8,626 nucleotides of DNA from a virus (Monodnaviria; Loebvirae; Hofneiviricota; Faserviricetes; Tubulavirales; Inoviridae): positions 1 through 8,626 of the IMG/VR virus record IMGVR_UViG_2663762939_000001. The stretch is one strand, 5' to 3'. Positions 795 through 8,626 of this stretch are shown in pieces. Made by a program: the position numbers and the translations under genes. Under the pieces are notes generated by a model that was given only the letters and a program-made list of their open reading frames with translations, ran no database searches and was not told where the DNA came from. Position 1 is the stretch's first letter. The number at the start of each line of letters is the position of its first letter.

Positions 795-2060
795 TCAAAG
801 CGTGCGAATAATATGAGCGGTCAGCAGAACATACATAATGCGTTGCTCATTACTGTCAGCTTTACTCCTGAAAAGCCAGCCAATCACCGGAATTTTACTG
901 ATAAACGGTACAGAACGGTCAGCATTGCTGGATGATGAATCAATCAGCCCACCAAGTAAGAGCGTCTGGCCATCCTTAATCTGAACTGTTGTCTGTATCT
1001 GACGCTGGTTCGTAATAATATCAGATGCCTGGTCATCGTTGCTGATGGAATCAGCGCGGGTATCAATAGTAAGTACAAGCTGGCCGTTCCCCATAACAAC
1101 AGGCGTCACCTTCAAAGATACGCCAACATCATGACGTTCAATGGTCTGAAACGGATTATTTACCCCGGCAGATTCACCCGTAACTTTACCCGTGATAAAG
1201 GGTACATTTTTACCAACAGAAATATAGCCTGTCTGACCAGACTGGGTAAGAATCCGGGGCGTTGAAATCACCTTAGACCGGGAGTTACTCTGCACCGCAC
1301 GCAGGGATACGGCCAGAACATTACCATCAAAAATGCCAAAAGAGCCGCCGGCAGTCGACAATGCGCTACCCAATGCTGAAGTATTAAAGCCCCCTGCTAC
1401 TTTATGCCCGGATGCAGAACCGGCTGCAAACGACAAATCAACACCATCCGACAGACTGGTTTCAAACATCAGCGACTGAATCAATACTTGGTCACGGGCA
1501 ACATCCACAGAATTGATAAAATCGGACAGAACCGGCAGCAGCTCGTCAGGAGCAGAAACAATCAGCGAGTTATTACCTGGATAATCCACGACATTACCAC
1601 CGCCATTAGAATCAAGATAAATTTTAACCAGTTGCTGAACATCGGACGATCTAACTTTTGTCAGCTTAAAATTTCTGACCGTAAGCGCCACAGGTACTGG
1701 CTGGTAAGATGGCTCAGAAGGAAAAGTATCATAAGACTGGTTATCAGAATCATCGGAACCCGAAACCATCTGCGAAGGTAATTTAGACGGCAAAGAGACT
1801 ACCGCAGGATTGCCAGAAAGCATGACAAACCCGTTAGCATTCAGAACAGACTTAAAGAAATCATCAATATTTGTTGGATTAACATCAGCATTAAATACGG
1901 TTACATTTCCTTTAACATCAGGATTAACAATAACAGGCTTGCCAGTTTTTGAAGAATACCACTGAACAAATGAGCGAACAGATGAATTATTTAAATTAAC
2001 AGTTTCAGCAGAAACGCAGAATGAACAGGCAAATAAAAAAGCAACAATAACAGAGCGCAT
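795..2060 (-). CDS. Secretin, filamentous phage export channel (pIV-like, GspD/PulD secretin family)
   Basis: The C-terminal region (…GGLIDSSSSNADRSVPFISKIPVIGWLFRSKADSNEQ…) resembles a secretin domain. An internal ATG at 2060 gives a signal-peptide-like N-terminus (MRSVIVAFLFACSFCVSA) with AGGAG about 10 nt upstream. The ORF extends to an ATG at 2153, but that start would overlap gI by about 86 nt. Last gene of the Ff-like order. Confidence 0.8.
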   Translation of the reverse strand: MRSVIVAFLFACSFCVSAETVNLNNSSVRSFVQWYSSKTGKPVIVNPDVKGNVTVFNADVNPTNIDDFFKSVLNANGFVMLSGNPAVVSLPSKLPSQMVSGSDDSDNQSYDTFPSEPSYQPVPVALTVRNFKLTKVRSSDVQQLVKIYLDSNGGGNVVDYPGNNSLIVSAPDELLPVLSDFINSVDVARDQVLIQSLMFETSLSDGVDLSFAAGSASGHKVAGGFNTSALGSALSTAGGSFGIFDGNVLAVSLRAVQSNSRSKVISTPRILTQSGQTGYISVGKNVPFITGKVTGESAGVNNPFQTIERHDVGVSLKVTPVVMGNGQLVLTIDTRADSISNDDQASDIITNQRQIQTTVQIKDGQTLLLGGLIDSSSSNADRSVPFISKIPVIGWLFRSKADSNEQRIMYVLLTAHIIRTL

Positions 2061-2067
2061 AATAATA

Positions 2068-3162
2068 TTACTCCTGACAGGTAACAGTCTGTAAATAACG
2101 GCCTTTTCTAATAACAATACGACAGGCATCTTTAATATCAACGAAATAACCATCTTTAATCAAATCAAAATACTGATATTTCATACCTTTAGCATCAACA
2201 AACGTAACGGAAACGTCAAAGCCAAGTTGTGAAAAAGAATTAATAGAAAGTCGGGGTAAGTCACTGGACGAATCAGGCGTTACCGCCCTCGCCTGTTCAG
2301 CATAAGCAGATTTAATAGCTGAGATTTCATCAACATTCTTTCCAGACTGGAGCCAGAAACCAAGCCCAAGCCCCAGCGCCAAAAAAGAAAGCATTAATAT
2401 AAGACGGTTCGATTTGCGAAAATAAATTTTAGTGAGGCGCATATAATAATTAAATCCTCTGTGAACAGAAAATTGACCGTGCGTGATAAATGGTGGTAAA
2501 AGCGAAAATGCGCCATGAGGATAATTATCTGTGAACGCTTGTTTGGTATTGTAAGCAGAATAAAGAGATTTTCCTGTATATATCCATTTATCAACAGTGA
2601 TTGAATTAACATTATCACCATATTTGACAATGCCAAAGTGTACCTTTGGTAAAGAAAATCGAGCCCCTGAAACCAAATTCATAATGGAGCCAACAAAAGG
2701 AATGTTTAATTTATCTGAACGGCGACAATAAACAACATGCTCAGCAAGCGCCAGACGAGCTTGCTTATCCATTATCGAAATATCCTGAATCAAAAATATA
2801 ATATCCCAGCCTAATTTTCTGGCATGTAAAAACCAGTCAATAACAGGTTGTCTGTCTTTATCACCCCATGAGCGGGAATTAAACCAAGTACCACATTCAT
2901 CAAGTACAAGGAGGCCATTACGGGATTCATCGTAAGATGTATTCCCAATACCAATAGCAAGTAAATCATTTAATGAAGGCTTGTCAGGAACGCGAATAAC
3001 GCGCGTTTTTTTCGCATAACGCCCAACCATAGGCATATTATGCAATTTAAGGTCAAGATTAGTGGCAACAGGACAACCCTTAGCAAGTCTTTCCTGTATT
3101 CTGGAAACACTAACAAGTGTCTTGCCTGAGCCTAATTTGCCTGTTACTACATGAACCGCCAT
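2068..3162 (-). CDS. Zot-like assembly ATPase (pI-like, zonula occludens toxin family)
   Basis: N-terminal Walker A motif GKLGSGKT (residues 8-15), a single hydrophobic TM segment (LILMLSFLALGLGLGFWL) and a C-terminal periplasmic-type domain. Size 364 aa and position between gVI and gIV fit pI/Zot. Confidence 0.8.
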   Translation of the reverse strand: MAVHVVTGKLGSGKTLVSVSRIQERLAKGCPVATNLDLKLHNMPMVGRYAKKTRVIRVPDKPSLNDLLAIGIGNTSYDESRNGLLVLDECGTWFNSRSWGDKDRQPVIDWFLHARKLGWDIIFLIQDISIMDKQARLALAEHVVYCRRSDKLNIPFVGSIMNLVSGARFSLPKVHFGIVKYGDNVNSITVDKWIYTGKSLYSAYNTKQAFTDNYPHGAFSLLPPFITHGQFSVHRGFNYYMRLTKIYFRKSNRLILMLSFLALGLGLGFWLQSGKNVDEISAIKSAYAEQARAVTPDSSSDLPRLSINSFSQLGFDVSVTFVDAKGMKYQYFDLIKDGYFVDIKDACRIVIRKGRYLQTVTCQE

Positions 3163-3504
3163 TTAAATCACCCTGTTTGCATAATCAAGAAATTTTTGTT
3201 TTAAATCGAAAACAAAAACACTGATACGAGTAACCATAATAACGTTAACACACGCCTGAAAATGGTCAGGCAATACAGATGCCATTAAATGAGAAAAATC
3301 AGCGGGTAACCCGTTATACATGACCTCAGCAAGATACTGCATTAAAAGCGTAACAGTTGTTGTAATTAGCGCGACCAATGCAACCGCTATTAAACCTGTT
3401 TTGGTTGCAAGCCGAGCTAAAAAACTTGCAACATAGCCAATAAGCAAAGGAACAAGACCAATAAGAAAACGCAACAATGCAGGAATACCTAATAATAAAG
3501 GCAT
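3163..3504 (-). CDS. Minor coat protein, pVI-like (hydrophobic, about 113 aa)
   Basis: Highly hydrophobic protein lying between gIII and gI, as in Ff phages. The ATG at 3504 shares a base with the gIII stop (TGATG) and has GGTGG upstream. A GTG at 3507 is an alternative start. Confidence 0.55.
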   Translation of the reverse strand: MPLLLGIPALLRFLIGLVPLLIGYVASFLARLATKTGLIAVALVALITTTVTLLMQYLAEVMYNGLPADFSHLMASVLPDHFQACVNVIMVTRISVFVFDLKQKFLDYANRVI

Positions 3505-4748
3505 CACTCACCACCTTTACGAAGCAATGAAGTTAAAGAAGTAAAGACATACCAGAACGTAAGGCAATAAAAAACCCATGAAAGAGCATCTTTAATAGTC
3601 AGCAATTTATCGCAACCAATATCAATCTGATAAACCTCTCCGGGAAAAATGATAAAATCAGAACAACCATTACCATTAGGTAAATTGGGCAACATAGCAC
3701 CTTTATTTAAGAAAGCCTCCCATAACGCACCATGAGAATCCTTTGCAATTCCTAATTCAGATTCAGCTAAAGTGGAAGCGCTATCTAATTCAGAATCCCC
3801 CTTCCCATAACGGGAATCACCGCCAGAAGGATCAGCAAAACGTCCGGCTCCGCGAGTAAGGTTATTTATAGCGTCACCAAGACGATTTATATTATTTTTA
3901 GTCTGTTCATCAGCCGACTTTTTATCATCAGATGAGGTGTCTTTTTCTGTTAACTTATCATGAATCTCACTGGCAATTTTAGGTGAAGCACCTTCGATAG
4001 CTGACTGAATATCTCCTTTGGTAATACTTGAGTCATTACCACCGCCAGAACCGCCGCCTGAGTTACCACCGCCTGTATCACCTCCTCCAGTATCACCACC
4101 CCCCGTATCCCCGCCTCCAGTATCACTGCCATCGCCAGCAGGAGAAGAAGGCTTATCTGAAGGATCGGCTACGGTTCCGGTAGGCTTCCATGTCGCAGCA
4201 CAAACAGTGCCATCATTCTGGCAAACAATGACGCCAGTGGCCTCATATTCACAACCGTTATAATAAATATAACGATCACCGTCATAAGAATAGACATTAT
4301 TGAATACACCTTCTTCGGGTGGTTTAGCTTCACAAATCTCTTCAGGCGTAGGCTCGGAAGGTTTTTCATCAGGAATAGATCGTTGAATATCACCTATAAT
4401 ATAAGCGGTTAAAGTCCAGTATTTATCTTTCTGGCCTGGAGAGTCGCTGTAAGTACAAGCGTCAGAAAACACAAGACGGAATTCAGAGTTAGGCCATACT
4501 CCCTCATAAGTTGGTTTAACCTGAGTAAAAACACCCTGAGCACTGTCTTTAGCACCCTGACAAGCAGAAGCCTGCATCGCTGCATCAATATAATAAACAG
4601 TTTGTTTAGCGCCATCTTGGTTGGTTATTTGCTTACTTTCAGCATATGCAGAGCTTTGAAAAGTAGATTTAGTAATGCTTTCCCATGAATCAGCATATGA
4701 AAAAGAAGAAATAAGAATAGCGGAAATGATTAATATATTCCTTTTCAT
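3504..4748 (-). CDS. Adsorption / minor coat protein, pIII-like, with signal peptide and Gly-rich linker
   Basis: Signal-peptide-like N-terminus ([19 protein letters not shown]), Cys-containing N-terminal domains, a (GGGDT)n/GGGS linker at residues ~205-239 and a hydrophobic C-terminal anchor ([15 protein letters not shown]). Follows gVIII as gIII does in Ff phages. Confidence 0.75.
4032..4136 (-). repeat. Tandem 15-nt codon repeat encoding the Gly-rich (GGGDT)x4[12 protein letters not shown] linker inside gIII
   Basis: Direct periodic repeats are visible in the DNA (…ccgcctccagtatcaccacc… units) and in the translation. The plus-strand Pro-rich ORF 4018-4263 is its antisense shadow. Confidence 0.7.
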
Positions 4749-4766
4749 AATAACCCGCTTTAATAA

Positions 4767-4784
4767 AGGGGCACGAATGCCCCT
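4767..4784 (-). terminator. Hairpin between gVIII and gIII (candidate intrinsic terminator/attenuator)
   Basis: Inverted repeat AGGGGCA / TGCCCCT (4767-4773 and 4778-4784) with a 4-nt loop, followed on the coding (minus) strand by a T-rich tract. It sits where Ff phages have a rho-independent terminator after gene VIII. Confidence 0.45.
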
Positions 4785-4793
4785 AAGTGAATT

Positions 4794-5036
4794 TTAAACT
4801 GCTTTGGAAGCGAATTTTTTAAAAATACGAATGGCAAGGCCTGCACCAACCACAGCAACAACGACAGGCCATACTTTACCAATAAGATCATTTGCCTGAG
4901 TCAGCAATGCATCCATTGCCTGACCTGCATAATCAGTCCCGCCTGTAGTTCCATCAGCCGCAAAAGAACTGGCAGAAACAAAAAGAGCTGTTGAAGCTAC
5001 TGCAATTTTAGATTTAACAAAAGACAAAACTTTCAT
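4794..5036 (-). CDS. Major coat protein, pVIII-like
   Basis: 80-aa precursor with a signal peptide (…VSASSFA|ADGTT), an acidic mature N-terminus, a hydrophobic core (VWPVVVAVVGAGLAIRIF) and a basic C-terminus (KKFASKAV). GGAG lies upstream of the ATG at 5036. Confidence 0.8.
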   Translation of the reverse strand: MKVLSFVKSKIAVASTALFVSASSFAADGTTGGTDYAGQAMDALLTQANDLIGKVWPVVVAVVGAGLAIRIFKKFASKAV

Positions 5037-5239: not shown

Positions 5240-5557
5240 TTAACCTTTTATTTCAGTGATTCCACCATCAGATGAAATGTTATAAGTTACCCCCTCCCTA
5301 CCTTCCATTGACCATACACGAACATAAACGGGGATCTGAACTAACTTTCCGATAAAGCTGTTAGCCTGATTCATTACACCGGAATTCACCAAAGCTTGTG
5401 ACACACGAATAATAATCTGGTCTTGCTTGGTACCACCAAAGCCATCAGGGGTCTCTAAGCCAATACCAATTTCATTATAATAACCCTGCCCATTAATTTT
5501 ATTACGCTGACGAGCACCAAGCATCTTACCTTTCACGAAAAGACCATAATTAGACAT
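5240..5557 (-). CDS. Putative ssDNA-binding protein (gV-like), assigned by position
   Basis: 105-aa protein directly downstream of the replication initiator, with a strong RBS (AGGAGA, 5-nt spacer). The assignment rests on synteny and size, not on a recognised motif. Confidence 0.5.
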   Translation of the reverse strand: MSNYGLFVKGKMLGARQRNKINGQGYYNEIGIGLETPDGFGGTKQDQIIIRVSQALVNSGVMNQANSFIGKLVQIPVYVRVWSMEGREGVTYNISSDGGITEIKG

Positions 5558-5568
5558 ATCACTCTCCT

Positions 5569-6633
5569 TTAGTGCCAGCTACTGGCATGTGAAATACGGT
5601 TGTAATCGAAAATTAAACCTTTCTCATAAACCCATGATGGAATTTTGGCTGGTTTAGCCTCAAGTGTTCTTACTAATGGAACAATATTATTTGAATCAGG
5701 GGATTCACAATAAAAATTAATATCTATCCCAAAAGACAGTAATTCTTTACGATGCCTGTAAAATGTTGGCTTTGGAAGCATTTCTTTCATATTTGCGCCC
5801 TGCTTCCATAACAAATATGTAGACTGTATTTTTCTTGGGAGATTAATTATCTTTTCATCAGTTAATATAGTATTTTGATTCATTTCTATTCTCCCTACAT
5901 AGTCAGAGAATACTTTATTAGGCGTCTCAATATTCCAGTTTTTACCAAGCGTAAGATTCAAATCAATTAATTCGGTTGTTCTTAATGTTAATTCAATACG
6001 TAATTTATCTTTTGACCAATCCAGTAAACCAGCGTTAACAAATTCATCTGCTATCTGGTGCCCTTTTTTTCCAGATGTATGCTCATCATATTTAGAGTAA
6101 AATTTCAGGCTCCAACGACGGGAGTTTTTTCCCAAATAGACCGTTCCCCCTTTGCCACAGGCGCGACCATGACGAGTTTTTGCTTTAAACTCTGCGGCAT
6201 AAAGCCATGCCCGCACATTTTCCAATGTTGATAATGAATACATGTAATTAATATCAACACGGGAAATCTTATATTGCCCTGTCATTACCTGACGATAGGA
6301 CGGAAGGTCATGGGGAATATGAAGTAATGCCAGTATTCTCGCGTAAGCTGTCAATACCAGTCCTTGCAAATCGTCGGAACCAATAACCGAATGTCCCTGA
6401 AGAAATTTTGACGGATTACCATCAATATAAAGATGTGTTGCCCGGCCTTCGCCATCGGATCCAACTGATCTTACTTTCATTGTAGATTCGTACGAACCGC
6501 GAACAGTCAACCGTTTTACTGTTTCCCACTCCACTGCACCATCAGCATCAACGCTGACGACACTACCAGCCGGTAACGGTTGGTGCGTGCAAGGCAGGAT
6601 TCCAGTAAACCAGTCGATCATAAGTAGCCACAC
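5569..6633 (-). CDS. Rolling-circle replication initiation protein (gII / RstA-like)
   Basis: 354-aa protein at the head of the minus-strand module, resembling phage/plasmid replication initiators. The track start at 6633 is GTG; the first ATG is at 6621 (MIDWFTG…), so the exact start is uncertain. Confidence 0.75.
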   Translation of the reverse strand: MWLLMIDWFTGILPCTHQPLPAGSVVSVDADGAVEWETVKRLTVRGSYESTMKVRSVGSDGEGRATHLYIDGNPSKFLQGHSVIGSDDLQGLVLTAYARILALLHIPHDLPSYRQVMTGQYKISRVDINYMYSLSTLENVRAWLYAAEFKAKTRHGRACGKGGTVYLGKNSRRWSLKFYSKYDEHTSGKKGHQIADEFVNAGLLDWSKDKLRIELTLRTTELIDLNLTLGKNWNIETPNKVFSDYVGRIEMNQNTILTDEKIINLPRKIQSTYLLWKQGANMKEMLPKPTFYRHRKELLSFGIDINFYCESPDSNNIVPLVRTLEAKPAKIPSWVYEKGLIFDYNRISHASSWH

Positions 6634-6792
6634 CCATCAAAATATGTGTCAATAGTCATTTGTGAGCAAATTGAGTGGTCACAATGTAATATGCTCAGAT
6701 CTGACAGTCAATACATTTGCAATGTTTAAATTGTCAGAAATGAGCATCAAATCTAACTATTGAAAAACCACTGTTAAGATGGAGCCAAGTAG
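6634..6792. promoter_or_regulatory. Divergent intergenic control region between gII (minus) and the HTH regulator (plus), with operator-like inverted repeats
   Basis: Imperfect inverted repeat 6691-6707 (atgctcagatctgacag) and 6731-6747 (ttgtcagaaatgagcat), 14 of 17 matching, with a perfect 10-bp palindrome tcagatctga at 6695-6704. Also TTGTGA-N13-TCACAA at 6660-6684. A possible leftward promoter is -35 TTGCTC (plus 6664-6669) and -10 CATATT (plus 6641-6646). GGAG at 6781-6784 precedes the regulator ATG. Confidence 0.5.
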
Positions 6793-7239
6793 ATGGGCAA
6801 CAATGAGCATGATGATATGGCGGACAAGCAGAGAGCAGAACGTATCAAAAAGGTAATTCTGGAAAACTCGACTTATGAAGAACTGGCCGAGAAAACCGGT
6901 ATTAGCGTTAGCACACTGGTCAGAATAGCGTCCGGCAAAACTGAGCCTAAATTCAGTGACATAATTCAGATAGCTAAAATTACGGGTGCAGACTTGAACA
7001 CCCTTGCTTATGGCTATGCTATTGATGTTAAAGAAGAAGCTACTGAAAGGAAGTTAATCACTTCCGCAGACGGTTACACTGATGAAGAAACCACTAACGC
7101 CCACAATTTCATTGTGTGGAACATCAGAACACTGAATAAACAAGATATTCTGGCTCTCTCAAGGCAAGTTTCTGCATTAAGTTCATATACTTACAGTACG
7201 AAAATGTTTATGAAAAAAGTAGTGTCAGGCGAAGATTAA
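6793..7239 (+). CDS. HTH (XRE/Cro-C1 type) transcriptional regulator, candidate phage repressor
   Basis: The N-terminal region (…TYEELAEKTGISVSTLVRIASGKTEPKFSDIIQIAKITGADLNTLAYG) resembles a helix-turn-helix XRE domain, followed by a C-terminal extension of about 70 aa. It is transcribed divergently from gII, like RstR in CTXphi. Confidence 0.75.
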   Translation: MGNNEHDDMADKQRAERIKKVILENSTYEELAEKTGISVSTLVRIASGKTEPKFSDIIQIAKITGADLNTLAYGYAIDVKEEATERKLITSADGYTDEETTNAHNFIVWNIRTLNKQDILALSRQVSALSSYTYSTKMFMKKVVSGED

Positions 7240-7249
7240 AGGGTTTAGC

Positions 7250-7296
7250 AGTCTCAGGAATGAGACTAACGTGCAGTATTACCAACACTGCACGTT
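7250..7296 (+). terminator. Two tandem hairpins downstream of the regulator gene (candidate terminator/attenuator)
   Basis: Stem 7250-7256 / 7261-7267 (agtctca / tgagact) with a 4-nt loop, then stem 7268-7277 / 7287-7296 (aacgtgcagt / actgcacgtt) with a 9-nt loop, followed by cTTTATT. Confidence 0.4.
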
Positions 7297-7338
7297 CTTT
7301 ATTGTGTGAATTTTGAACAGTGAAAAAGGATCAAAAGG

Positions 7339-7761
7339 ATGAGTAGAAATAACGAAACAAGCGGCGTTGAACTGGTTGTCGTGGGCGTATTTGCTTTCTG
7401 TCTGGCAGTTGTTGCCTGGCTAATGAAAACTTTCGATGTTGAATGGCAAACAGCACTGGAAACTGCGCCTGGCCTGATAGTCTGGCTGCTTGTTGTCGGT
7501 GCGGGGATCTTTTTCGGGATCAAAATGGAAACTGGCCTTATTCGCTGGGGTGCTCCACTGGCGATCGCCCTTCTGATTCCGGTATTCAAGCCAATTCTTA
7601 AGGAAGCTGCCGGAGTTCGTGAAACGGGTGGGCTGGTTTTCGATGATATGGTTTCGTGGTATGGAACTGGCTGGGGAATGTCTCTGATGTTCTTCGGGAT
7701 TCTTATTGTCGGATATGGCCTGCTTTATTGGTGGCACAGAAGAAATTCATATTACTGGTAA
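7339..7761 (+). CDS. Small integral membrane protein (140 aa, about 4 predicted TM helices), function unknown
   Basis: Four hydrophobic segments (about residues 10-28, 44-62, 69-83, 112-131) and a Trp/Tyr-rich C-terminus. AAGGA lies about 9 nt upstream of the ATG. The overlapping minus-strand ORFs are low-complexity antisense shadows. Confidence 0.65.
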   Translation: MSRNNETSGVELVVVGVFAFCLAVVAWLMKTFDVEWQTALETAPGLIVWLLVVGAGIFFGIKMETGLIRWGAPLAIALLIPVFKPILKEAAGVRETGGLVFDDMVSWYGTGWGMSLMFFGILIVGYGLLYWWHRRNSYYW

Positions 7762-7789
7762 TCAATAAAACGTAGAAGAGAGGAAACAT

Positions 7790-8065
7790 ATGAAACTGAA
7801 TCCTGAGAAATACAATAGAAACATCACCCTGCTATGTCCTGTGTGCGGAAATACAGAGATGGAACACGAGGAAGAGTCTGAAGTCGTCAGATGTGTAGGC
7901 TGCGGGAAAGAATTTACTAATGATGAATTAATCCAAGAAAACGGGGTGAGTATTGACGCCCATGTAGATGAAATAAAAGAAGAGTTAACAAAAGACATTC
8001 AAAAACAGTTTGGTGACATGCTCAAAAAGGCATTTAAGGGAAGTAAGAATATAAGGATCAAATAA
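7790..8065 (+). CDS. Small zinc-ribbon protein (91 aa; CPVCG…CVGCG), function unknown
   Basis: Two CxxC pairs (C16/C19 and C35/C38) form a putative zinc ribbon, followed by a charged helical tail. Strong RBS (AGAGAGGAAACAT-ATG). The stop overlaps the next gene's start (TAATG). Confidence 0.65.
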   Translation: MKLNPEKYNRNITLLCPVCGNTEMEHEEESEVVRCVGCGKEFTNDELIQENGVSIDAHVDEIKEELTKDIQKQFGDMLKKAFKGSKNIRIK

Positions 8066-8544
8066 TGACAACAAGTGATGCCATCGCTTTAGCTGCGCTT
8101 GTAGTATCGATTTACACTATCATATCGTCAGAAATGAAATCGAGAAAAAGCGATAGAGAACAAAGGGTTATAAAGGATGAGCAAGACAGGTTACGTAAGT
8201 TGCTTCTGGAAAAAGAAACAAAGTCAGCAATTAATGAGATGAAAGCTGAGCTTGGTGCTCGCCTCGTAAAAATAGCCAAAAACAACTATAGGCTCAAGAT
8301 ATTTAATAGAGGGAGGGTTGAGGCTAAAAATATAGAGATTCATTTCCCTGATAACGATGGAAATGAATATCTTTCAATGCATGATGTAGAAGATAAATTT
8401 CCATATGAGGTATTACACCCGCAACATGGGATTGAAATTTTAGCGGGAATAAGCTTTGGAAGTAAAACTAAATACCGAATAAAACTCATATGGGATGACA
8501 ATTATAAAAGAAGAAATGAAGAGGAGTTTTTCATTTCTATATAA
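8065..8544 (+). CDS. N-terminally membrane-anchored protein (159 aa) with charged helical linker and beta-rich C-terminal domain, function unknown
   Basis: N-terminal hydrophobic helix (AIALAALVVSIYTIISS), a Lys/Glu-rich predicted coiled region, then a C-terminal domain. AAGGA RBS with 7-nt spacer. Translationally coupled to the zinc-ribbon gene. Confidence 0.65.
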   Translation: MTTSDAIALAALVVSIYTIISSEMKSRKSDREQRVIKDEQDRLRKLLLEKETKSAINEMKAELGARLVKIAKNNYRLKIFNRGRVEAKNIEIHFPDNDGNEYLSMHDVEDKFPYEVLHPQHGIEILAGISFGSKTKYRIKLIWDDNYKRRNEEEFFISI

Positions 8545-8574
8545 ATTGGTTCGCACAATGACGTTATGCTAAAG

Positions 8575-8612
8575 AGGCCGCTGCGGGATTCGATTTTCGC
8601 AGCGGCCTTTTC
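8575..8612 (+). terminator. GC-rich hairpin plus T-tract (candidate intrinsic terminator), core of a longer imperfect palindrome
   Basis: Stem AGGCCGCTGCG (8575-8585) / CGCAGCGGCCT (8598-8608), 12-nt loop, followed by TTTT (8608-8611). The arms extend imperfectly to 8562-8585 / 8598-8621, 21 of 24 matching. Confidence 0.5.
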
Positions 8613-8626
8613 AACATAACGAGTCG

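What the first reader, a model, noticed from the sequence alone, without database searches (positions are those of the whole stretch)
7339..7761. Four-TM small membrane protein with aromatic-rich C-terminus
The 140-aa protein has four hydrophobic helices and ends in LLYWWHRRNSYYW. Its antisense strand yields two long low-complexity ORFs that are probably artefacts. Small multi-pass membrane proteins in prophages often mediate superinfection exclusion or act as effectors that disrupt the membrane.
Basis: inference. Interest (0 to 1): 0.5.

Follow-up and report, generated by a model that had tools for sequence, protein, structure and literature searches.

The report
Conserved four-helix membrane protein, filamentous prophage
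This is a real, well-conserved small inner-membrane protein of unknown function, encoded just after the repressor of a filamentous prophage of E. coli and its relatives; it most plausibly protects the lysogen at the cell envelope, but nothing here proves that.

Summary
Bases 7339-7761 (+) encode a 140-aa protein with four hydrophobic helices and the tail LLYWWHRRNSYYW. It is a genuine gene: it is the only frame open in all 11 homologous loci, and dN/dS is 0.07-0.16. The two antisense ORFs are shadows of it.

The window is one unit of a dif-integrating, CUS-1/YpfPhi-like inovirus prophage with an IKe-like assembly module. The gene lies in the arm divergent from the replication gene, directly after the phage regulator and a conserved pair of stem-loops.

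The family is small: 41 clusters at 50% identity among 1.84 billion proteins. The named members are all Enterobacterales. Its only match in the four profile libraries is phrog_4174 (unknown function). A confident AF2 model (pLDDT 85) has no informative structural neighbour.

The gene stays next to the regulator across three regulator types, two replication-protein types and unrelated adsorption proteins. It is absent from IKe, I2-2, If1, Ff and PEar, and it is independent of the downstream Zn-ribbon/159-aa pair. Homologues also occur on conjugative plasmids and, at 26% identity, beside T6SS VgrG/PAAR genes.

Best guess, at about 0.3: a prophage-expressed inner-membrane exclusion or protection factor. 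This is inference from context, not a demonstrated function.

The parts
7339..7761 (+). Gene for the 140-aa four-helix membrane protein (phrog_4174 family); stop codon included
   Evidence: ORF list and sequence. It is the only frame open in 11 homologous loci and has dN/dS 0.07-0.16. Full-length match to phrog_4174, E 1.5e-85.
7326..7330 (+). Shine-Dalgarno-like AAGGA, 8 nt before the ATG
   Evidence: Read from the sequence. The stretch AAAGGATCAAAAGGATG is identical in L001-L003 and partly conserved in L006.
7363..7434 (+). Helix 1 (aa 9-32), the most hydrophobic and most variable helix
   Evidence: KD peak 2.61; AF2 helix 7-32, pLDDT above 90; variable columns in alignment A1.
7444..7527 (+). 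Helix 2 (aa 36-63). It is preceded by the conserved loop-1 motif TFDVxWxTALET, predicted to face the periplasm
   Evidence: charge bias.
7537..7611 (+). Helix 3 (aa 67-91), kinked at P81 and P85. P73 and P85 are the most conserved residues of the wider family, within the motif P-x-L-x-[YH]-x-A-G
   Evidence: In alignment A2, P85 is invariant and P73 is conserved at 97%. AF2 helices 67-77, 79-82 and 84-91.
7657..7680 (+). Family signature WYGTGWGM (aa 107-114), an aromatic/glycine cluster at the predicted periplasmic start of helix 4
   Evidence: Conservation across 31 divergent members: W107 87%, Y108 94%, G109 74%, W112 74%.
7669..7749 (+). Helix 4 (aa 111-137) with the conserved G125-Y126-G127
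7735..7758 (+). Basic and aromatic C-terminal tail HRRNSYYW, predicted to be cytoplasmic
   Evidence: Conserved in close homologues and in several distant ones (RRNSYY, RRNNYYW, SRNRYY, KNNYYYY). The C-terminal region has a mean net charge of +1.2 across the family.
7250..7303 (+). Two adjacent stem-loops (7250-7267 and 7268-7296) followed by a T-rich run. They travel with the gene and may be a terminator or attenuator, or a single-stranded-DNA signal of the phage
   Evidence: RNA fold -28.5 kcal/mol, z -2.9. Conserved upstream of the gene where the regulators differ, with compensatory stem changes in L002 and L006. A two-hairpin arrangement with different sequence occurs in L024 and L005.
6793..7239 (+). 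HTH_3 (RstR-like) phage regulator immediately upstream; context, not part of the protein
   Evidence: Pfam HTH_3 1.1e-9 and phrog_3557. It is divergent from the pII replication gene at 5569-6633.

Best explanation
Shown: bases 7339-7761 encode a genuine polytopic membrane protein under purifying selection. It is predicted to sit in the inner membrane, with four helices, both termini in the cytoplasm and both conserved loops in the periplasm. It belongs to a small, uncharacterised family. The gene is a single-gene module located just downstream of the phage regulator in the lysogeny arm of temperate, dif-integrating, CUS-1-like inoviruses.

Inferred: it is made in the lysogen at a low level, either by read-through of the hairpin/T-run that precedes it or from a weak promoter of its own. 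It inserts into the inner membrane. Through its conserved periplasm-facing aromatic/glycine surface (TFDVxW, PxLxYxAG, WYGxxW) it engages a conserved host inner-membrane component, such as the TolQRA entry machinery, rather than a phage-specific protein. This would hinder entry of incoming filamentous-phage DNA, and possibly of other Tol-dependent or contact-delivered agents, into a cell that already carries the element. In short, it would be an envelope-level exclusion or protection factor, analogous to P22 SieA, Pf PfsE and plasmid TraS/Eex but not homologous to them.
For: - Real gene: only open frame in 11 loci, dN/dS 0.07-0.16.
- Membrane protein: four helices; AF2 pLDDT 85, pTM 0.72.
- Topology: mean net charge is +1.1 for the N-terminus, loop 2 and C-terminus, against -2.1 for loops 1 and 3. 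The bias holds in 27 of 31 family members.
- Position: always immediately after the phage regulator and divergent from the replication gene. This holds across three regulator types (148-aa HTH, 150-aa HTH at 39% identity, 60-89-aa small regulators), two replication-protein types and different downstream cargo.
- Not tied to the adsorption protein: the protein is 99% identical in phages whose pIII proteins are unrelated.
- Not needed for the basic inovirus cycle: no tblastn match in the phages collection, which holds IKe, I2-2, If1, Ff and PEar, even though pI is 52-65% identical to theirs.
- Acts alone: the downstream Zn-ribbon/159-aa pair occurs on 93 plasmids without it, and the gene occurs without that pair in L003, L006, L011 and L014.
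- On other elements that enter through the envelope: next to a VirB-type T4SS and on an IncHI2 conjugative plasmid.
- Precedents: inner-membrane exclusion proteins of similar size encoded by prophages, namely SieA (162-164 aa, 3-4 TM; PMC10883804) and PfsE, whose aromatic YxWGW motif is essential (PMC8764522).
Against: - Expression in the lysogen is not shown. A terminator-like hairpin with a T-run lies between the regulator and the gene, and the consensus scan found no + strand promoter.
- YpfPhi gives partial superinfection protection (PMC4266046), and no Yersinia pestis protein was found among the homologues, so this gene is not needed for that phenotype.
- Distant homologues sit in T6SS spike/effector islands, which fits an immunity role at least as well.
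- TolQRA as the partner is pure conjecture.
Confidence: 0.3

Rival explanations
1. Orphan immunity (interbacterial-defence) protein. It would sit in the inner membrane and neutralise a membrane-targeting toxin delivered from outside, such as a T6SS effector or a pore-forming colicin. The phage carries it because it protects the lysogen from competitors.
For: - Homologues at 26% identity lie directly upstream of VgrG, or of PAAR + Amidase_2 effector + a small putative immunity gene.
- The Mixta copy lies 2.3 kb from an Hcp gene.
- The IncHI2 copy lies in a region with CBASS, a methyltransferase and a large muramidase.
- Size, helix number and Nin-Cin topology resemble polytopic immunity proteins. 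This resemblance is recalled from general knowledge, not tested.
- The conserved surface is predicted to be periplasmic.
Against: - No toxin gene is adjacent in any inovirus locus.
- In the T6SS loci the gene lies upstream of the spike/effector genes, paired with a small DUF6471 protein and next to IS1595, so it may be a mobile-element remnant rather than part of the effector cassette.
- None of the 31 members matches a colicin-immunity family or any other immunity family in Pfam at E up to 1.
- Immunity proteins usually diversify with their toxins, whereas the C-terminal half of this protein is almost invariant across genera.
Confidence: 0.15
2. Membrane-disrupting effector of a defence or abortive-infection module, or a toxin kept in check by a neighbour. 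It would act with the downstream Zn-ribbon and 159-aa proteins, or under control of the upstream regulator, and would depolarise the membrane when triggered.
For: - The order HTH, 4TM, Zn-ribbon, 159-aa is syntenic between the window and a diverged inovirus in which the four proteins are only 37, 40, 52 and 62% identical.
- The genes are tightly spaced: a 28-nt gap, then an overlapping ATGA.
- The Zn-ribbon protein gives weak matches to the PADLOC candidates PDC-S64 (4.5e-7) and HEC-08.
- A small regulator precedes the gene in nearly every context.
- The helices are glycine-rich, which would suit oligomerisation.
Against: - The Zn-ribbon/159-aa pair is autonomous. It occurs on 93 plasmids, 85 of them conjugative, next to an ISNCY transposase and without the 4TM gene.
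- The 4TM gene occurs without that pair in L003, L006, L011/L012, L014, L010 and L013.
- Only 28 E. coli records carry the downstream pair at megablast level, against 128 that carry the gene.
- No PADLOC hit for the 4TM protein itself.
- No conserved charged or polar residue inside the helices that would suggest a pore.
Confidence: 0.15
3. Phage life-cycle accessory. It would be a membrane factor that helps replication, assembly or secretion of temperate inoviruses, for example by anchoring the replicative form or buffering the envelope stress caused by the secretin.
For: - The gene is retained in at least five distinct inovirus lineages, next to the regulator and a conserved hairpin pair that could be a single-stranded-DNA origin or packaging signal.
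- It is present on circular or high-coverage 8-9.6 kb replicative-form-like contigs.
Against: - No tblastn match in the phages collection, which holds IKe, I2-2, If1, Ff and PEar, although they share the assembly module.
- No Yersinia pestis protein among the homologues found.
- Present on conjugative plasmids and in non-phage chromosomal islands.
Confidence: 0.1
4. Not a functional gene: a chance ORF, or the real genes are the antisense ORFs.
For: Long antisense ORFs exist.
Against: The sense frame has dN/dS 0.07-0.16 and is the only frame open in every homologue. The antisense frames are broken or evolve neutrally. Protein-level conservation extends down to 24% identity.
Confidence: 0.01

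Closest known systems
phrog_4174 (PHROGs family of unknown function), annotated 'hypothetical protein' in RefSeq, e.g. WP_058336083.1 and WP_000089314.1
   Same: Full-length match, 140 of 140 profile positions, E 1.5e-85. It is the same gene as in E. coli ST131, UTI89 and NC101 prophages.
   Different: Nothing differs. The family has no assigned function, so membership explains nothing.
P22 SieA superinfection-exclusion protein (PMC10883804)
   Same: Prophage-encoded, similar in size (162-164 aa against 140), a polytopic inner-membrane protein with 3-4 helices, a single gene sufficient on its own, and acting at the DNA-entry step.
   Different: No detectable sequence relation: only phrog_4174 was hit in PHROGs. 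The SieA motif FxRYPxEAxxFNK is not in the sequence. SieA belongs to a tailed phage and targets its ejection proteins. Here the phage is filamentous, and the protein is identical across phages with unrelated adsorption proteins.
PfsE (PA0721) of Pseudomonas Pf filamentous phages (PMC8764522)
   Same: Inovirus-encoded inner-membrane protein. A conserved aromatic/glycine cluster (YxWGW there, WYGTGWG here) lies at the membrane interface. PfsE excludes superinfecting phage by binding a host inner-membrane protein.
   Different: PfsE is about 30 residues with a single helix and acts on PilC of type IV pili. The motif resemblance is only in flavour, no homology is detectable, and no partner is known here.
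Entry-exclusion proteins of conjugative elements (F TraS, SXT/R391 Eex); properties recalled from general knowledge
   Same: Small, hydrophobic, polytopic inner-membrane proteins of roughly 140-170 aa that block entry of single-stranded DNA into cells already carrying the element. One homologue here sits beside a VirB-type T4SS and another on an IncHI2 plasmid.
   Different: No Pfam hit in any of the 31 members. Most copies are in phages, not in transfer operons. No interaction with a donor TraG-like protein can be inferred.
Variable end ORFs of CUS-1 and YpfPhi (orf1/orf1a; YPO2271/YPO2272), PMC4266046
   Same: Same prophage family, the same arm next to the RstR-like regulator and the att site, and described as being of unknown function. 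The gene is present in UTI89, an O18:K1:H7 strain by general knowledge.
   Different: I could not read the original CUS-1 paper, so equating this gene with orf1 or orf1a is a guess. No Yersinia pestis protein was found among the homologues.

Membership tests
phrog_4174 | Full-length profile match | tested here: met
   E 1.5e-85, residues 1-140 against profile positions 1-140.
Temperate dif-integrating inovirus (CUS-1/YpfPhi-like): context of the gene | Inovirus core genes: pII, G5P, pVIII, pIII, pVI, pI/Zot and secretin | tested here: met
   Pfam Phage_CRI 2.9e-73, Putative_G5P 3.3e-51, G3P_pilus-bind 2e-24, Zot 5.1e-40, Secretin 8.4e-45. pVIII and pVI are inferred from position and from 85-97% identity to L011 and L005.
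Temperate dif-integrating inovirus (CUS-1/YpfPhi-like): context of the gene | RstR-like regulator divergent from the replication gene, and integration at dif | tested here: met
   HTH_3 regulator at 6793-7239. Near-identical prophages lie next to hipA at the E. coli terminus. A dif-like site GGTTCGCACAA-TGACG-TTATGCTAAAG lies at 8548-8574. The comparison with the dif consensus is from memory.
P22 SieA-type superinfection exclusion | Sequence homology, including the FxRYPxEAxxFNK motif | tested here: not met
   The only PHROG hit is phrog_4174. The motif is absent from the sequence.
P22 SieA-type superinfection exclusion | Prophage-encoded polytopic inner-membrane protein of about 160 aa | tested here: met
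   140 aa with four predicted helices. Prediction only.
P22 SieA-type superinfection exclusion | Blocks DNA entry of superinfecting phage | not testable with these tools
   Needs infection or transduction assays.
PfsE (Pf inovirus exclusion protein) | Single-helix protein of about 30 aa with a YxWGW motif | tested here: not met
   This protein has 140 aa and four helices. Its motif is WYGTGWG, not YxWGW.
Holins | Match to a holin family, and a lysis cassette with an endolysin nearby | tested here: not met
   Only 2 of 31 members touch Phage_holin_3_6, at E 0.33. There is no lysin in the window. By general knowledge, inoviruses are secreted and do not lyse the host.
Pore-forming-colicin immunity proteins | Pfam-level homology, and an adjacent colicin gene | tested here: not met
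   No such family among the Pfam hits of the 31 members at E up to 1. No colicin gene in any locus.
T6SS immunity proteins | Encoded next to a cognate effector in a vgrG/PAAR island | tested here: inconclusive
   Not so in the window or in any inovirus locus. Homologues at 26% identity lie upstream of VgrG or PAAR + Amidase_2, but they are paired with DUF6471 and IS1595, and no membrane-targeting effector was identified.
Known anti-phage defence systems (PADLOC) | Match to a PADLOC model | tested here: not met
   0 families at E up to 0.1 for the 4TM protein.
Conjugative entry-exclusion proteins (TraS/Eex) | Homology to a described family, and a location inside a transfer operon | tested here: not met
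   No recurring Pfam hit. One homologue lies beside a VirB-type T4SS operon but on the opposite strand.
   No Pfam or NCBIfam hit. Against the PDB, the best profile hit is E 0.016 to a 47-aa antenna peptide. The gene is present in only 128 of 5426 complete E. coli genomes.

The most novel reading that the evidence does not exclude
The protein founds a new family of single-gene inner-membrane exclusion factors shared by temperate inoviruses and conjugative plasmids. It would block entry of single-stranded DNA, and perhaps of Tol-dependent colicins or contact-delivered toxins, by binding a conserved host inner-membrane machine such as TolQRA through its periplasm-facing aromatic/glycine surface. 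If so, it would be the first non-repressor exclusion function described for the enterobacterial CUS-1/YpfPhi prophage group, which is linked to ExPEC and to plague.
Probability: 0.2. Interest if true: 0.6.

Novelty: new member of a known kind. Interest (0 to 1): 0.33.

Why it matters
CUS-1/YpfPhi-type filamentous prophages sit at dif in high-virulence E. coli lineages (ST131, UTI89, NC101) and in pandemic Y. pestis. The 2014 review names the ORFs at the ends of these prophages as the open question for what the phage does for its host (PMC4266046).

This gene is the most persistent of those unknown ORFs in the E. coli and Enterobacterales branch. It is small, appears to act alone, and can be tested with simple expression, transduction and competition assays. 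A positive result would add a new exclusion or protection family and might explain how these prophages shape phage, plasmid or toxin susceptibility. A negative result would close a plausible lead. As it stands, the finding is a solid annotation of an uncharacterised accessory membrane protein, not a surprise.

Tried and rejected
- Pfam, NCBIfam and PADLOC on the protein: no hit.
- Pfam on all 31 divergent members at E up to 1: only scattered single hits (DUF2070, DUF202, DUF3792, PsiE, Saf_2TM), none recurring. I treat these as noise from hydrophobic composition.
- DNA and tblastn searches of the phage collection: no match.
- Profile search of PDB sequences: only a 47-aa light-harvesting peptide at E 0.016.
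- First AF2 run, with close homologues only: poor, pLDDT 64. The run with 31 divergent members was good, pLDDT 85.
- Three-gene-system idea (4TM + Zn-ribbon + 159 aa): considered because of the synteny in L024. Largely rejected once the Zn-ribbon/159-aa pair turned out to be an autonomous module on 93 plasmids.
- The roughly 500 plasmid hits of the first DNA search come from a 75-nt dif-like/terminator piece at 8544-8618, not from the gene.
- Neighbours of the plasmid, T4SS and other inovirus copies: no informative Pfam domains.
- The consensus promoter scan found no + strand promoter.
- The original CUS-1 paper (PMC135385) is not held. Full-text searches for the accessions and for phrog_4174 found nothing.

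Full report
**1. Observation**

The + strand carries an ATG...TAA ORF at 7339-7761 that encodes 140 residues ending in LLYWWHRRNSYYW. An AAGGA sequence lies 8 nt upstream of the ATG. Kyte-Doolittle 19-residue windows give four hydrophobic peaks of 2.61, 2.24, 1.63 and 1.73.

**2. The window**

The window is one unit of a filamentous (inovirus) prophage.
- On the - strand it encodes pII (Phage_CRI 2.9e-73 plus G2P_X_C), a G5P-type ssDNA-binding protein, an 80-aa major-coat-like protein, pIII (G3P_pilus-bind plus Phage_Coat_A), a pVI-like protein, pI/Zot and a secretin.
- On the + strand, divergent from pII, it encodes an HTH_3 regulator (6793-7239), the 140-aa protein, an ECs_2282-family zinc-ribbon protein (7790-8065) and a 159-aa protein (8065-8544).
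- A dif-like sequence and a strong hairpin with a T-run close the window at 8548-8612.
- Near-identical regulatory arms lie in prophages next to hipA at the E. coli terminus, including in ST131, UTI89 and NC101. That is the CUS-1/YpfPhi family of dif-integrating phages (PMC4266046).
- The window is a mosaic. Its pVIII-to-secretin block is 82-97% identical in protein to Yersinia enterocolitica and Izhakiella inoviruses, and its pI is 65% identical to IKe. Its pII, G5P, regulator, 4TM, zinc-ribbon and 159-aa genes are 95-99% identical to an E. coli ST131 prophage whose pIII is unrelated.

**3. Real gene or antisense genes?**

Among 11 homologous loci spanning 52-99% protein identity, the sense frame is the only one open throughout. 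Nei-Gojobori dN/dS for the sense frame is 0.07-0.16, and third-position changes dominate, for example 72 of 115 differences.

The 105-aa antisense ORF is in the frame that is the exact codon complement. It evolves with dN/dS of 0.7-1.9 and is cut to 45-70 codons in L003, L012, L010 and L008.

The 96-aa antisense ORF is in the frame whose third positions coincide with the sense third positions. Stops in that frame need sense Tyr, His or Gln codons, which a hydrophobic protein rarely has. Its dN/dS (0.12-0.33) exceeds the sense value in every computable pairwise comparison.

**4. The protein**

With an alignment of 31 divergent relatives, AlphaFold2 gives a confident model: mean pLDDT 85 and pTM 0.72. 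Its helices are 7-32, 36-63, 67-91 (kinked at P81 and P85) and 111-137, and the 92-110 loop has low confidence.

Charge distribution places both termini and loop 2 in the cytoplasm, with loops 1 and 3 in the periplasm. Mean net charge is +1.1 inside against -2.1 outside, and the bias holds in 27 of 31 members.

Conservation across the wide family concentrates at P73, P85 (invariant), the stretch P-x-L-x-[YH]-x-A-G after helix 3, W107-Y108-G109-x-x-W112 at the start of helix 4, and G125-Y126-G127. Within the close group the whole C-terminal half is almost invariant across genera, whereas helices 1 and 2 vary. The basic and aromatic tail is shared by close homologues and by several distant ones. 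No charged residue is conserved inside the helices, which argues against a channel-like lining, though only weakly.

**5. Relatives and known families**

The word-indexed search of 5.8 billion proteins found 49 clusters. All are unnamed or 'hypothetical', and the named ones come from Enterobacterales: Escherichia, Klebsiella, Salmonella, Citrobacter, Phytobacter, Pantoea, Lonsdalea, Yersinia enterocolitica, Kosakonia, Pectobacterium and Mixta. The exhaustive profile search of 1.84 billion representatives found only 41 clusters at E up to 1e-3, of 110-160 aa and with the same four-helix layout.

**6. Context**

This is the only functional evidence available.

(a) *Position.* In every inovirus locus the gene lies on the strand opposite the replication and structural genes, directly downstream of the phage regulator. 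That regulator is a 148-aa HTH in the window, L001 and L014. It is a 150-aa HTH at 39% identity in L003, and a 60-89-aa small regulator in L002, L006, L004, L005, L011 and L012. In L023-L025 it is a 151-163-aa HTH at 37% identity, and there the 4TM protein is only 40% identical.

(b) *Downstream cargo varies.* The Zn-ribbon plus 159-aa pair follows the gene in the window, L001, L002, L005, L007 and L023-L025. Unrelated genes follow it in L003, L004, L006, L011/L012 and L014.

(c) *The downstream pair is autonomous.* The Zn-ribbon/159-aa pair occurs on 93 plasmids, 85 of them conjugative. In the two examined it lies beside an ISNCY transposase with no 4TM gene. The 4TM protein is therefore a single-gene module.

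(d) *Independent of the adsorption protein.* It is 99% identical in phages with unrelated pIII proteins.

(e) *Absent from non-temperate relatives.* There is no tblastn match in the phages collection, which holds IKe, I2-2, If1, Ff and PEar, although they share the assembly module. It is therefore not needed for the basic inovirus cycle.

(f) *Outside inoviruses.* Copies occur beside a VirB-type T4SS (63% identity), on IncHI2 conjugative plasmids next to a CBASS operon (36%), and alone in the dif-region neighbourhood of Mixta, 2.3 kb from an Hcp gene (53%). At 24-26% identity the P0082 relatives lie behind a small DUF6471 protein and in front of VgrG or PAAR + Amidase_2, and the P0067 relatives lie beside an IS1595 transposase.

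(g) *Upstream hairpins.* A pair of stem-loops followed by a T-rich run (7250-7303) precedes the gene. It is conserved with the gene where the regulators differ, with compensatory changes in the first stem. Diverged phages keep a two-hairpin arrangement with different sequence.

**7. Mechanism**

What is shown is a conserved, polytopic, probably Nin-Cin inner-membrane protein that acts on its own and belongs to the lysogeny arm of temperate inoviruses.

What I infer, with confidence of about 0.3, is an envelope-level exclusion or protection function. The protein would be made in the lysogen. Its conserved periplasm-facing surface would bind a conserved host inner-membrane component rather than a phage-specific one, because the protein is indifferent to pIII type. 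Entry of incoming filamentous-phage DNA, or of other agents using the same route, would be impeded. TolQRA is the obvious candidate, since by established knowledge filamentous phages and group A colicins depend on it. It remains conjecture.

The presence of homologues on conjugative plasmids would fit, because pilus-bearing cells are the targets of such phages.

The rivals are:
- an orphan immunity protein against membrane-targeting toxins (0.15), supported by the T6SS neighbourhoods of distant homologues;
- a membrane effector of a defence or toxin module (0.15), weakened by the autonomy of the neighbouring pair;
- a life-cycle accessory (0.1), weakened by its absence from IKe-like phages.

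About 0.3 remains for functions I have not thought of.

**8. Comparison with known systems**

It works most like P22 SieA, which is 162-164 aa, has 3-4 helices, is an inner-membrane protein and blocks DNA entry (PMC10883804). It also resembles Pf PfsE, an inovirus inner-membrane protein whose aromatic YxWGW motif is essential and which binds host PilC (PMC8764522). From general knowledge, it resembles plasmid TraS and Eex as well. It is a member of none of them: sequence-family tests were negative and the defining motifs are absent. Its only demonstrable membership is phrog_4174.

**9. Novelty and verdict**

The gene is already in the databases as a hypothetical protein, and its kind, a small prophage membrane protein in a lysogeny module, is familiar. 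What is new here is the delineation of the family and its constant position next to the regulator. Also new are its independence from the neighbouring genes and from pIII, its predicted topology and motifs, and the exclusion of the antisense ORFs. Interest is modest, at about 0.33. It is a clean, cheaply testable candidate in a medically relevant prophage family, but nothing in the evidence is surprising.

Noticed in passing
window 7250-7303; also L002 9910-10003, L006 693-786, L003 9905-10003, L024 9905-10003, L005 6866-6980: Two adjacent stem-loops lie between the phage regulator and the 4TM gene. The first has a GNAA-like tetraloop. The stems differ in sequence between lineages but still pair (AGUCUCA/UGAGACU, GUACCA/UGGUAC, CCGUGG/CCACGG). 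Only the CUS-1-like form is followed by a T-run. This could be a terminator or attenuator, or a single-stranded-DNA signal of the phage such as a minus-strand origin or packaging signal.
   Followed up: partly
window 8544-8618: A dif-like site (GGTTCGCACAA-TGACG-TTATGCTAAAG, 8548-8574) is followed by a GC-rich hairpin and T-run (8575-8612). This roughly 75-nt piece alone accounts for most of the E. coli hits outside the prophages, including most of the 475 plasmid places, at about 90-93% identity, mostly in unannotated DNA.
   Followed up: partly
window 7790-8544; L027 3726-4480; L028 1745-2481: The ECs_2282 zinc-ribbon gene and the 159-aa gene overlap at their stop and start (ATGA). The 159-aa protein has an N-terminal hydrophobic segment. 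Together they form an autonomous two-gene module found on 93 plasmids, 85 of them conjugative, next to an ISNCY transposase. The zinc-ribbon protein weakly matches the PADLOC candidates PDC-S64 (4.5e-7) and HEC-08. This is possibly an uncharacterised defence or accessory pair.
   Followed up: partly
window 795-5036 versus 5240-8544: The prophage is a recombinant. Its structural and assembly half is 82-97% identical in protein to Yersinia enterocolitica and Izhakiella inoviruses, with pI 65% identical to IKe. Its replication and regulation half is 95-99% identical to an E. coli ST131 CUS-1-like prophage that has an unrelated pIII and a different Zot and secretin.
   Followed up: yes
window 3504-4748 (-): pIII carries an IKe/If1-type pilus-binding domain (PF21443, 2e-24) and a TolA-binding-type N1 domain. 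They are joined by a Gly-rich [10 protein letters not shown] repeat linker. This suggests that a temperate, dif-integrating phage uses a conjugative pilus as its receptor.
   Followed up: no
L025 11813-12889: In one genome a 358-aa protein with a TolA domain (PF06519) is encoded immediately after a related prophage at the dif region, where other strains have hipBA. It may belong to a second dif-integrated element.
   Followed up: no
L019 1693-3935; L021 594-4094: Distant relatives of the 4TM protein (26% identity) always follow a 73-aa DUF6471 protein. They precede either VgrG or a PAAR protein, an Amidase_2 effector and a small membrane-anchored putative immunity protein. An IS1595 transposase lies upstream in L019 and L020.
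   Followed up: partly
L002 (JARKOR010000214.1): A contig filed under a 'Candidatus Nanosynbacter' MAG carries this prophage arm with proteins 99% identical to those of the E. coli-type window. This is probably a binning contaminant.
   Followed up: no
L014 (NZ_CP128883.1, 9565 bp, circular); L005 (8271-bp contig, coverage 336); L012 (8918-bp contig): Small circular or high-coverage contigs that carry a complete inovirus, including the 4TM gene, are filed as 'untypable plasmids' or as separate contigs. They are probably replicative forms, which would indicate that the phages are active.
   Followed up: no
E. coli genomes: The gene occurs in 128 of 5426 complete E. coli genomes, with a median of 2 and up to 16 copies per genome. 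This is consistent with the tandem prophage arrays described for YpfPhi.
   Followed up: no
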